This document shows, one piece after another, positions 1 through 3,000 of a stretch of DNA of 64,000 nucleotides. The position numbers are program-made. The stretch is from Escherichia coli (GTDB lineage Bacteria; Pseudomonadota; Gammaproteobacteria; Enterobacterales; Enterobacteriaceae): NCBI RefSeq assembly GCF_016026235.1, contig NZ_CP065614.1. One strand, 5' to 3'. Each line of letters opens with the position of its first letter. Position 1 is the first letter of the stretch.

Positions 1-3000
1 GCAGAAGACACAACCCAAAAGGGGATGACGTAACTGATGCAACGAAAATCATTTGAAATACCAAAAGCACTGGTCTGGGCATCATATCTGGATGTGCGTC
101 GCAACAAGGGAGCCCCCCGGATGCGACGGGCAGACTTTGAAAATGTTCGACCAGCAACGTGATGGCAATCTATACAAGATCTGGAACCGGCTATGTTCGG
201 GAACATGGTTTCCGCCACCAGTGCTGGAAAAACGGATCCCGAAGTCGAATGGCAAGGAACGCATTCTGGGGATCCCAACAGTATCCGATCGAATTGCTCA
301 GGGAGCGATAAAACTTTTCATGGAAGAAAAGCTTGACCCGATTTTCCATGCTGATTCATATGGTTACCGACCAGGCAAATCAGCTCATGACGCTCTGAAA
401 CAATGTGCCATCCGGTGCTGGCGTTATAGCTGGATACTGGAAGTGGACATCAGTGCGTTTTTCGACCATGTGAAACATGATCTGGTGCTCAAAGCTCTGG
501 AACACCACGGGATGCCTAAATGGGTCATCCTGTACTGTCGACGCTGGATGGAAGCGCCAATGCAGAGTTGTGAAAATGGAGAATTAATAACCCGAACACG
601 AGGCACTCCGCAGGGCGGGGTCATTAGTCCGCTACTTGCTAACTTGTTCCTTCACTATGCATTTGATTTGTGGATGGAAAGAGAATATCGGGGGGTACCG
701 TTTGAGAGGTACGCTGACGATATTGTAGTACATTGTTCACGAATGAGTGATGCAACAAGGCTAAAGAACAGGTTATCGGAGCGCTTCTCGGAAGTCGGGC
801 TGGTCCTGAATGCAGGGAAAACGAATATCGCCTACATTGACACGTTTAAAAGGAGAAACGTCGCAACGAGTTTCACCTTTCTCGGATATGACTTCAAAGT
901 GCGTACGCTGAAGAATTTCAAAGGCGAACGGTACCGAAAATGCATGCCGGGTGCGTCAAATGCAGCAATGCGCAAAATAACAGAAACAATCAAGAAGTGG
1001 CGTATACATCGCTCAACAGCTGAGAGTTTGCTGGATTTTGCGAGGCGCTACAATGCGATAGTGAGAGGCTGGATCGAGTACTACGGAAAGTTCTGGTCCA
1101 GAAATTTCAACTATCGACTGTGGAGTGCAATGCAGTCACGTCTGCTCAAGTGGATGCAGTCTAAATACAGACTTTCGAACCGGAAGGCTCAGCGAAAGCT
1201 GACGCTGGTAAGGAAGGAGTATCCGAAGCTATTTGTTCACTGGTATTTACTACGTGCATCAAATGAGTGATCAAGAGCCGTATGACGCGAGAGTGTCACG
1301 TACGGTTCCGTGAGCAGCCGGGGAGTGAAATTCTCTCCGGCTGACTCGACTCGCGGGTTCCGACAGCGATGACGAACATGCGGCGGTGTTGTACTCGCTG
1401 ATCGGCACATGCCGTCTGAACAATGTGGAACCAGAAAAATGGCTGCGTTACGTCATTGAGCATATCCAGGACTGGCCGGCAAACCGGGTACGTGATCTGT
1501 TGCCCTGGAAAGTTGATCTGAGCTCTCAGTAAATATCAATACGGTTCTGACGAGCCGCTTACTTTTGGCGTAATTCTGCTGCGCCTTTACTGAACACAAT
1601 GCCGTATTCAGCAAGAAGTCCACGAATGTGATTTATCAGTTGTGTCCTTTCCATTGAAACCAACCGACGCATATTCAAAAAAGTCTGGACGTCCTGTTGC
1701 TCCAGAGTTTTTATTGGTACGGGTCGTATAGTTCCATGTTGGCAGGCCTCAGCTATTGCCTGTGCGTCGTTATAATCATTTTTCTGGCACCGCTGATAAG
1801 CTTTAACATGTTGTGCCGGAAGCAATATTACATCATGGTCGAGTTTCCTGATTTCCCGGGCCCAGTAATGAGATGCCCCGCCAGCCTCCATCGCAACAGT
1901 CATTTTAGGCTGTTGCACCAGCCAGTTAAGCAGTTGATTGCGAGAAAGTTTGGTCTTTCCTGCGGGTTTGCCATGAGCATTGATACTGAAAAGATAAAAG
2001 TTCGTTTTAGCCAGATCAATGCCGGTGATTTTCTGTTCAGACATGGTATCCCGCTTACTTTTGTGGTTAAAGTTTATCCATCATGGCGCAATTGAAGGCT
2101 GCCGTGAAAGAGGGGGAAGACTATCTCATCGGTTACTGTTAAACGGCTAAGAGAAACTATCTTTTTCAAGCAAAGAAGATACGGTGAAACAGGCGATTTC
2201 ACCGTGAAATACTGTTCAAAAAAAACGCTAATAAAAGCAAAATTTCTTTTAAAACAGCCAATTAAAAACTGGTGAGTTGCTGGCGAAAAACTTGAATTTT
2301 CACAGCGAATTCAGATTATCTTTTAGTACAAGAGCAATCATACGATCTAACTTATCCTGAACTTCCAACGGTAATCTGCCGAATTCATATGAGAACGTAC
2401 GTCCCTTTACTCGTTTTCGAGCAAATTTATCTTTACTATCAAATTTCCATAACAAAGTTACAACCGCTTTATCCTTTACTCCTGAATCAAGCAATGAAGA
2501 CATTTCCTTGGTTATAAGCCGCATAATACTGTTTTTAACCTCGTCTTCAGAAAGATTGTCATCAGCAGTAATAAGCTCAATACTCGGCGAGATATTCTTC
2601 ACAACTTCATCAATAGATATATCACCCAGCCTCAGTCGTTCACTTAATTCAGCCAGTTGCCTGTAATCGGCGTATGTCAGCTCAGACTGAACAGGAAAAA
2701 GAGACACAAAATCTTTAGGTACGGACGCTGCTTGGAGGGCACGAGTCACCTTAGCTGCCGACAATCCCTCTCTTTCCGCAATTTGCTTCTGGTTCATACC
2801 GGCCTCTTTGAGACGTACTAAACGCAACCCAATTTCACGAATATTATGTTCAAGTGACGTCTGCAAATCTTTCGCCAGATGCTGAGCTTCAGAAACAGTA
2901 AGCTCATCATCCGTTACAAGTACACGTAATCCAACCTTGCATAGCAAAGCTGCTGCCCGACGACGGGAACCATCCAAAATCTCAATAAGATCGCCAGTCC

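What the first reader, a model, noticed from the sequence alone, without database searches (positions are those of the whole stretch)
2181..2305. Candidate parS with P1-like heptamer and hexamer boxes downstream of parB
ATTTCAC/GTGAAAT heptamers and TGGCGA hexamers flank an AT-rich centre in the position expected for a P1-type centromere, which would make the parAB module self-contained.
Basis: partly seen in the sequence, partly recalled or inferred. Interest (0 to 1): 0.3.

Follow-up and report, generated by a model that had tools for sequence, protein, structure and literature searches.

The report
Known parS centromere of Shigella pINV

Summary
The window is part of a Shigella/EIEC invasion plasmid (pINV). 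Positions 2066-3960 are base-for-base identical to pWR501, the marked derivative of pWR100.

Directly downstream of parA (3280-4479, minus) and parB (2300-3280, minus) lies a P1-type parS. Read in the parB direction it contains:
- B1, TCGCCA, 2286-2281
- an IHF-like core, TAATTGGCTGTTT, 2264-2252
- A2, ATTTCAC, 2210-2204
- A3, GTGAAAT, 2202-2196
- B2, TCGCCT, 2196-2191
- A4, GTTTCAC, 2190-2184

The 19-nt core ATTTCAnnGTGAAATCGCC occurs exactly once in 64 kb. It aligns column for column with the annotated parS of P1 and P7 and with five other family members.

Four features are peculiar to pINV:
- a 21-bp insertion (two helical turns) between the IHF site and A2
- a degenerate A1 box
- T instead of A at the sixth base of B2
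- A4 lying 2 bp closer to B2

ParB is 58% identical to P1 ParB. It carries Asp at the position that covaries with box B across the family.

This site is the pWR100 parS studied by Sergueev, Dabrazhynetskaya and Austin (2005). Novelty: already known. Interest is low.

The parts
3280..4479 (-). parA, a type Ia partition ATPase of 399 aa
   Evidence: ORF. NCBIfam hits to SopA, RepA and ParA partition ATPases. About 69% DNA identity to P1 parA. Annotated 'AAA family ATPase' in pWR501.
2300..3280 (-). parB, the centromere-binding protein of 326 aa (coordinates include the stop codon)
   Evidence: ORF. TIGR00180 parB_part, 86 bits against a cut-off of 58. 58% identical to P1 ParB over 328 aa. Residues 138-324 match the P1 ParB chains 1ZX4/2NTZ at E about 1e-67. 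Contains the GSRRR motif. Asp284 aligns with P1 Asp288.
2184..2286 (-). parS as a whole, from B1 to A4: the partition site (centromere) of pINV
   Evidence: Aligns to the annotated P1 parS (L001 3696-3778) and P7 parS. Identical to pWR501. At least 99% conserved in 131 pINV-type plasmids.
2281..2286 (-). Box B1, TCGCCA
   Evidence: Identical to P1 B1. It starts 22 bp before the IHF core, against 21 bp in P1.
2272..2278 (-). Degenerate remnant of box A1, AACTCAC (5 of 7 bases)
   Evidence: All seven other family members have a heptamer with at most 1 mismatch exactly 43 bp upstream of A2. pINV has none at the equivalent place. The one SNP found inside parS among pINV lineages (2273 A to G, pSFxv_1) falls here.
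2252..2264 (-). IHF-binding core (inferred), TAATTGGCTGTTT
   Evidence: 10 of 13 bases identical to the annotated P1 IHF site TAACTGACTGTTT, with the same AAACAG-N4-TTA core on the other strand. The pattern is rare by chance: 0.73 expected per window.
2223..2243 (-). 21-bp insertion specific to pINV; its exact edges depend on the alignment
   Evidence: Both MAFFT alignments open a single 21-column gap in all seven other family members between the IHF site and A2. No tandem duplication was detected.
2204..2210 (-). Box A2, ATTTCAC
   Evidence: Exact heptamer, aligned with A2 of P1 and P7.
2196..2202 (-). Box A3, GTGAAAT, inverted relative to A2 with a 1-bp spacer
   Evidence: Exact heptamer. 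Forms a perfect 7-1-7 palindrome with A2.
2191..2196 (-). Box B2, TCGCCT, sharing its first T with A3
   Evidence: Positions 1-5 match P1 B2 (TCGCCA). The sixth base is T here and A in the other seven members.
2184..2190 (-). Box A4, GTTTCAC, directly abutting B2
   Evidence: The same heptamer serves as A4 in P7 and in the Klebsiella plasmid. The gap to B2 is 0 bp here and 2 bp in the others.
2181..2205 (-). Hairpin formed by A3 and A4, with arms extended to 10 bp; possible secondary role as the par operon terminator
   Evidence: Picked up by the terminator-like scan. RNA fold of -12.4 kcal/mol, z = -2.4.
2297..2303 (-). Box-A-like GTGAAAA overlapping the parB TGA stop; role uncertain
   Evidence: A 6/7 match, upstream of B1 and inverted relative to P1's A1. 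It has no counterpart in the other family members.
4480..4620 (-). Region upstream of parA retained between an IS66-type fragment and parA; presumed par promoter and operator
   Evidence: Sequence shows an imperfect palindrome, GCATGTACAATATGTACTTGCATGC. The consensus scan found no promoter here, so this part is inferred by analogy with P1 Ppar and its operator.

Best explanation
Window 2184-2286 (minus strand) is the parS centromere of the P1par-family (type Ia) partition cassette parA-parB-parS of the Shigella/EIEC invasion plasmid pINV. It is the site known as pWR100 parS.

Proposed mechanism:
1. ParB dimers recognise the right arm. The helix-turn-helix domains bind the inverted box A pair A2/A3, and the C-terminal dimer domain binds box B2.
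2. The host protein IHF binds the central TAATTGGCTGTTT core and bends the A+T-rich centre. This lets the left-arm box B1 join the same ParB complex.
3. Further ParB is then loaded. ParA-ATP on the nucleoid moves the two plasmid copies apart before division.
4. The pINV-specific 21-bp insertion equals two helical turns, so it keeps the two arms on the same face of the bent DNA.

Shown here: sequence homology, the arrangement of the boxes, identity to pWR501, and covariation between ParB and box B.

Taken from the literature: partition function of the cassette.

Inferred by analogy with P1: the IHF and ParB contacts, the phasing argument, and ParB spreading.
For: - Identity of the window. Window 2050-4600 is 100% identical to many Shigella/EIEC pINV plasmids. 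Window 2066-3960 has no difference from pWR501 of S. flexneri M90T.
- Box arrangement. It aligns to the annotated parS of P1 and P7 and to five other parB-downstream regions. The core ATTTCAnnGTGAAATCGCC is unique in the window.
- IHF core. It shares 10 of 13 bases with P1's annotated IHF site.
- ParB. It is 58% identical to P1 ParB. It matches the solved P1 ParB(142-333)-parS chains 1ZX4/2NTZ at E about 1e-67.
- Covariation across 8 systems. The residue aligned with P1 Asp288 is Asp wherever box B is TCGCCx (P1, pINV, Klebsiella, Salmonella, Cronobacter plasmid). It is His, Arg and Asn where box B is TCCCCA, TTCCCA and TCACCA.
- Literature. PMC6519299 says S. flexneri ParAB function was confirmed in E. 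coli on a mini-P1 vector (Sergueev et al. 2005) and that cloned parAB stabilises pSTAB about tenfold. PMC10999674 summarises the P1 parS rules: BA and AABA clusters around an IHF site, A2-A3-B2 sufficient for binding, and box B setting specificity. PMC6410309 names 'the parS locus of pINV'.
- My recollection of the Sergueev et al. abstract (paper not held). It describes an atypical parS with a 21-bp central insert and P1-like specificity. This matches what I measured independently.
Against: - Nothing here measures ParB or IHF binding.
- A1 is degenerate.
- B2 differs from every other family member at its sixth base.
- The B2-A4 spacing is 2 bp shorter than in the others.
- The IHF core departs from the general IHF consensus at two positions (as does P1's own site).
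- The scan detected no consensus promoter upstream of parA.
- In native pINV, deleting parAB had little effect on stability unless the toxin-antitoxin systems were also removed (PMC6519299).
Confidence: 0.93

Rival explanations
1. The A3/A4 inverted repeat (2181-2205) is mainly the intrinsic transcription terminator of the parAB operon, and the resemblance to box A is secondary.
For: - The terminator-like scan reports a 10-bp stem with a 5-nt loop, followed by ATCTTCTTTG.
- The RNA folds at -12.4 kcal/mol, z = -2.4, with 3 of 200 shuffles folding as well.
- It lies about 100 nt after the parB stop codon.
Against: - The U tract is weak (5 T in 10, interrupted).
- The same A3-B2-A4 inverted geometry is present in P1 and P7, where these are annotated ParB-binding boxes.
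- A terminator does not explain B1, the IHF core or the A2/A3 palindrome.
- A terminator role could coexist with parS but cannot replace it.
Confidence: 0.04
2. The A2/A3 palindrome is a docking site (virS-like) for VirB, the ParB-related anti-silencer of pINV, either instead of or in competition with ParB.
For: - ATTTCACgGTGAAAT has the same 7-1-7 geometry as the VirB sites. Perfect copies are ATTTCAGTATGAAAT at 26594 and its complement at 12518.
- The bioRxiv paper 10.1101/2020.11.20.392365 raises VirB-ParAB crosstalk as an open question.
- VirB HTH chains (3VWB) match this ParB at E = 6e-21.
Against: - The inner bases differ from the validated icsP and icsB sites: C-g-G here against G-t-A.
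- The flanking box is TCGCC rather than the TCCCC seen next to the VirB-type sites.
- The full B1-IHF-A2A3B2A4 layout and the ParB/box B covariation are explained only by a cognate ParB site.
- Deleting virB does not destabilise pINV (PMC6519299).
Confidence: 0.03

Closest known systems
pWR100 parS (pINV parS) of Shigella flexneri, P1par family (Sergueev, Dabrazhynetskaya and Austin, J Bacteriol 2005; cited in PMC6519299 and PMC10999674)
   Same: It is the same element. Window 2066-3960 is identical to pWR501, the Tn501-marked derivative of pWR100. The position downstream of parB, the P1-type box B and the 21-bp central insert all match what I recall of that paper's abstract.
   Different: Nothing in the parS itself. 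I could not read the primary paper, so their exact box assignments could not be compared. That includes how they treat the TCGCCT B2 and the missing A1.
Bacteriophage P1 parS (incB), annotated in AF234172
   Same: - Order B1-A1-IHF-A2-A3-B2-A4 downstream of parB.
- B1 identical (TCGCCA).
- A3 identical, and A2 differs at one base.
- B2 positions 1-5 identical.
- IHF core identical at 10 of 13 bases.
- B1-to-IHF spacing within 1 bp of P1.
- ParB 58% identical, with Asp at the box-B discriminator position.
   Different: - 21 bp inserted between the IHF site and A2.
- A1 degenerate.
- B2 sixth base T rather than A.
- A4 is GTTTCAC and abuts B2 instead of lying 2 bp away.
- B1 starts 14 bp after the parB stop codon, against 5 bp in P1.
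P7 parS and pMT1 parS (other P1par-family 'species')
   Same: The same architecture and the same fixed 43-bp A1-to-A2 spacing as in P1. A4 in P7 is GTTTCAC, as in pINV.
   Different: Box B2 is TTCCCA in P7 and TCACCA in pMT1, with Arg or Asn at the ParB discriminator position. pINV carries the P1-type TCGCC and Asp. Their ParB proteins are only 38-42% identical to pINV ParB.
VirB-binding sites (virS) of pINV virulence promoters (icsP, icsB, ospD1)
   Same: A 7-1-7 inverted repeat of box-A-like heptamers, bound by a ParB-superfamily HTH protein encoded on the same plasmid (PMC6410309, PMC10770331).
   Different: No IHF site, no left arm, no adjacent parAB genes, different inner bases, and TCCCC rather than TCGCC alongside. 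Their function is anti-silencing of H-NS, not partition.

Membership tests
P1par-family parS (type Ia plasmid centromere) | Lies immediately downstream of parB in a parA-parB-parS cassette | tested here: met
   parA is at 3280-4479 and parB at 2300-3280, both on the minus strand. B1 begins 14 bp after the parB stop codon.
P1par-family parS (type Ia plasmid centromere) | Inverted box A heptamer pair A2/A3 (ATTTCAN n NTGAAAT), with box B2 sharing the last T of A3 ('small parS') | tested here: met
   ATTTCACgGTGAAATCGCC at 2210-2192 is the only exact match in the window. It aligns with all seven other members.
P1par-family parS (type Ia plasmid centromere) | Box B hexamer of the form TNNCCA | tested here: inconclusive
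   B1 is TCGCCA and meets the form. B2 is TCGCCT: its sixth base is T where the other seven members have A. The effect on binding is unknown.
P1par-family parS (type Ia plasmid centromere) | Box A4 two base pairs downstream of B2 | tested here: inconclusive
   GTTTCAC is present at 2190-2184, but with 0 bp spacing instead of 2 bp.
P1par-family parS (type Ia plasmid centromere) | Central IHF-binding site in an A+T-rich spacer | tested here: met
   This holds at the sequence level only. TAATTGGCTGTTT shares 10 of 13 bases with the annotated P1 IHF site. The centre is 71% A+T. IHF binding itself cannot be tested here.
P1par-family parS (type Ia plasmid centromere) | Left arm B1 followed by box A1, with A1 exactly 43 bp upstream of A2 | tested here: not met
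   B1 is present. A1 is degenerate (AACTCAC, 5 of 7 bases, shifted), and the arm lies 21-22 bp further away. In P1 the left arm is dispensable for binding: only A2-A3-B2 are required (PMC10999674). This therefore does not exclude membership.
P1par-family parS (type Ia plasmid centromere) | Cognate ParB with an HTH domain (box A) and a C-terminal dimer domain (box B), whose discriminator residue matches box B | tested here: met
   Match to P1 ParB chains 1ZX4/2NTZ at E about 1e-67 over residues 138-324. Asp284 aligns with P1 Asp288. Asp at this position goes with TCGCC in 5 of 5 systems, and another residue goes with another box B in 3 of 3.
P1par-family parS (type Ia plasmid centromere) | Supports ParA/ParB-dependent partition and partition incompatibility | not testable with these tools
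   Reported for pWR100 par by Sergueev et al. 2005 (as cited in PMC6519299). Cloned parAB stabilises pSTAB about tenfold (PMC6519299).
VirB-binding site (virS) | Near-perfect 7-1-7 inverted repeat ATTTCAGtATGAAAT upstream of a VirB-dependent promoter | tested here: inconclusive
   The geometry is met, but the three central bases differ and no virulence promoter is adjacent. PMC6410309 lists the parS locus among its eight in silico matches, without a binding test.

The most novel reading that the evidence does not exclude
The A2/A3 palindrome of pINV parS is also occupied by VirB, the ParB-like virulence regulator, at 37 C. On this reading, virulence induction competes with or remodels the partition complex.

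This would account for two published observations:
- the temperature- and VirB-dependent effects of parAB on pINV stability (PMC6519299);
- the plasmid instability seen on VirB overproduction (discussed in bioRxiv 10.1101/2020.11.20.392365).

The pINV-specific changes (lost A1, 21-bp insert, B2 TCGCCT) would then be adaptations to sharing a plasmid with a paralogous DNA-binding protein.
Probability: 0.12. Interest if true: 0.45.

Novelty: already known. Interest (0 to 1): 0.08.

Why it matters
It confirms that the pINV parAB cassette carries its own centromere, so it is a complete partition module bounded by IS debris. That is useful for annotation, because public records annotate only the two proteins.

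It adds no new biology. The site, its unusual layout and its function were published in 2005.

The only open point of some interest is whether VirB, the ParB paralogue on the same plasmid, touches this site. The literature has raised this question but, as far as I could find, has not tested it.

Tried and rejected
- Reading the primary papers (Sergueev 2005; Dabrazhynetskaya 2005 and 2009) by PMC id and DOI. None is held. Details of those papers are therefore cited only through papers that cite them, or marked as my own recollection.
- Looking for diverged relatives of this particular parS, to trace the origin of the 21-bp insert. A blastn 'distant' search of 2130-2420 against plasmids found only pINV-type records at 99% identity or more, short parB-coding matches in Vibrio, and a 37-bp core match in Cronobacter. 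The nearest ParB outside pINV is about 58-60% identical. No intermediate forms were found.
- Testing whether the insert is a tandem duplication. Tandem Repeats Finder found nothing at score 30 or above, and by eye the two 21-mers share only about 11 of 21 bases. Rejected as unsupported.
- Scanning for a consensus promoter upstream of parA or within parS. No site was reported in 4480-4620 or 2181-2305.
- Rfam. No RNA family matches in or near parS.
- Chance clustering. Rejected, although the single heptamer alone is at chance frequency.

Full report
**What is in the sequence**

Two adjacent minus-strand ORFs encode a 399-aa ParA (3280-4479) and a 326-aa ParB (2300-3280). NCBIfam places them in the SopA/RepA/ParA partition ATPases and the ParB/RepB/Spo0J family.

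Read in the parB direction, the DNA after the parB stop codon (2302-2300) is:

GTGAAAA(2303-2297) ttcaagtttt TCGCCA(2286-2281) gc AACTCAC(2278-2272) cagttttt TAATTGGCTGTTT(2264-2252) ... ATTTCAC(2210-2204) g GTGAAAT(2202-2196)CGCCT(to 2191) GTTTCAC(2190-2184)

The centre, 2211-2280, is 71.4% A+T against 52.8% for the window.
- Only one hexamer is exactly TGGCGA. The other is AGGCGA.
- Both exact heptamers lie in the right arm.
- The left-arm heptamer is a 6/7 match that overlaps the parB stop codon and has an unusual orientation.

**Is it more than chance?**

- ATTTCAC alone is at its chance frequency: 12 found, 12.2 expected.
- The composite is not. ATTTCAnnnTGAAAT gives 18 matches at up to 2 mismatches against 5.5 expected, with three perfect copies.
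- The 19-nt core ATTTCAnnGTGAAATCGCC has its only exact match here. At up to 3 mismatches it gives 5 matches against 0.36 expected.

**Where the window comes from**

Window 2050-4600 is 100% identical to many Shigella and enteroinvasive E. coli invasion plasmids; 131 records cover the whole query at 99% identity or more. Compared base by base with pWR501, the marked pWR100 of S. flexneri 5a M90T, there is no difference between 2066 and 3960. That span covers all of parS and parB.

The one variant seen inside the parS interval in another lineage (pSFxv_1) is A to G at 2273, in the degenerate A1 remnant.

**Comparison with P1 and the rest of the family**

The P1 record AF234172 annotates parS as follows:

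| Element | Sequence |
|---|---|
| B1 | TCGCCA |
| A1 | ATTTCAC |
| IHF site | TAACTGACTGTTT |
| A2 | ATTTCAA |
| A3 | GTGAAAT |
| B2 | TCGCCA |
| A4 | ATTTCAC |

P7 is annotated in the same way, with B2 = TTCCCA.

I took the parB-downstream DNA of six further systems: an E. coli P1-like plasmid, a Klebsiella plasmid, a Salmonella plasmid, a Cronobacter plasmid, Cronobacter phage JK004 and Y. pestis pMT1. Two MAFFT alignments of pINV with seven other systems put the pINV boxes in register with the family.

Every other member has A1 exactly 43 bp upstream of A2 and a 2-bp gap between B2 and A4. pINV differs in four ways:
1. A single 21-column gap opens in all seven others between the IHF core and A2. 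This is a 21-bp insertion in pINV, at about 2243-2223.
2. pINV has no box A at the A1 position.
3. B2 is TCGCCT, with T at the sixth base where the others have A.
4. A4 abuts B2.

B1 keeps its distance to the IHF core (22 bp against 21 bp). The IHF core shares 10 of 13 bases with P1's, including the same AAACAG-N4-TTA on the other strand. Twenty-one base pairs is two helical turns, so the rotational phasing of the two arms is preserved. The phasing argument is an inference.

**The protein side**

ParB is 58% identical to P1 ParB over its whole length. Residues 138-324 match the crystallised P1 ParB(142-333) chains 1ZX4/2NTZ at E about 1e-67. VirB HTH chains match at 6e-21.

PMC10999674 states three things about P1 parS:
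- A2-A3-B2 suffice for ParB binding.
- Box B sets species specificity.
- An aspartate of P1 ParB reads the second base of B2.

In an eight-protein alignment, the residue aligned with P1 Asp288 behaves as follows (box B sequences):

| Box B2 | Systems | Residue at the P1 Asp288 position |
|---|---|---|
| TCGCCx | P1, pINV (Asp284), Klebsiella, Salmonella, Cronobacter plasmid | Asp |
| TCCCCA | JK004 | His |
| TTCCCA | P7 | Arg |
| TCACCA | pMT1 | Asn |

That the aspartate in question is Asp288 is my own recollection; the paper as held does not give the number. This covariation is in-session evidence that the pINV box B and its ParB are a cognate pair of the P1 type.

**Literature**

[quoted passage not shown] It also shows that cloned parAB stabilises a pINV-replicon test plasmid about tenfold at 37 C.
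[quoted passage not shown] - I could not read the 2005 paper. From memory, its abstract describes an atypical parS with P1-like box B and specificity and a 21-bp central insert whose deletion leaves much activity. This agrees with what I measured independently.

**Mechanism**

The best explanation (confidence 0.93) is that this is the cognate centromere:
1. ParB HTH domains bind A2/A3.
2. The ParB C-terminal dimer domain binds B2.
3. IHF bends the centre so that B1 joins the complex.
4. More ParB is recruited, and ParA-ATP segregates the plasmid copies.

Homology, layout and covariation are shown here. Partition activity comes from the literature. The specific contacts are inferred from P1.

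**Rivals**

- *Terminator.* A3 and A4, extended by ACG...CGT, form a 10-bp hairpin of -12.4 kcal/mol, z = -2.4. It is followed by a weak T-rich run, so a secondary terminator role is possible. The same inverted geometry exists in P1 and P7, and a terminator does not explain the rest of the site.
- *VirB cross-binding.* This is plausible as an additional property, given the shared 7-1-7 geometry and the remark in PMC6410309. However, the inner bases and the flanking box differ, and nothing indicates that it replaces ParB.

**Module boundaries**

- Downstream of parS lie an IS110-family transposase fragment (1559-2044, minus), an IS66-type C-terminal fragment, and a group II intron (RT ORF at 53-1270; Rfam Intron_gpII at 1273-1350).
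- Upstream of parA, an IS66-type fragment ends near 4620. This leaves about 140 bp with an imperfect palindrome but no consensus promoter hit.

**Verdict**

The element is already known, so interest is low (0.08).

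Noticed in passing
window 12518-12532 and 26594-26608; also 34116-34130, 42005-42019 and 12226-12240: There are perfect 7-1-7 box-A-like palindromes: ATTTCATACTGAAAT at 12518 and its complement ATTTCAGTATGAAAT at 26594. 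In one reading direction both are followed by TCCCC. One-mismatch copies TTTTCACTCTGAAAT(CCCC) occur at 34116 and 42005. The sequence equals the published icsP-type VirB site (PMC6410309). The ORF next to the 26594 site (25520-26194, minus) looks like a small effector gene. The adjoining TCCCC resembles the box B of phage JK004 (TCCCCA), which hints that VirB sites descend from an A2-A3-B2 'small parS'.
   Followed up: partly
window 2181-2205 (minus strand): Boxes A3 and A4, plus flanking ACG/CGT, form a perfect 10-bp hairpin with box B in the loop (-12.4 kcal/mol, z = -2.4). It is followed by a weak T-rich run, so it may double as the par operon terminator.
   Followed up: partly
window 2273: This is the only difference found inside the parS interval between this window and S. 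flexneri 2002017 pSFxv_1 (A to G in the parB direction). It falls in the degenerate A1 remnant, which fits that box being non-functional.
   Followed up: yes
window 53-1350 and 8411-8488: A group II intron: a reverse transcriptase/maturase ORF at 53-1270 (+), followed by an Rfam Intron_gpII match at 1273-1350. A second Intron_gpII match lies at 8411-8488.
   Followed up: no
window 1386-2044 and 4617-7007: IS debris brackets the par cassette. Downstream of parS are an IS66-type C-terminal fragment (1386-1532) and an IS110-family transposase N-terminal fragment (1559-2044, minus). Upstream of parA are an IS66-type fragment (4617-4931), an IS1-like ORF, and an IS21-type istB/istA pair (5206-7007). 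From about 1711 downward the window diverges structurally from pWR501.
   Followed up: partly
window 46577-46666, 49342-49525 and 53490-53566: Rfam matches to CopA-like antisense RNA (an IncF-type replication control region), AS-pc02 and AS-traI. These indicate the pINV replicon and remnants of an F-like transfer region further along the window.
   Followed up: no
window 2297-2303: A box-A-like heptamer, GTGAAAA in the parB direction, overlaps the parB TGA stop codon. It lies upstream of B1 and has no counterpart in the seven other family members examined, so it may be a chance match.
   Followed up: partly
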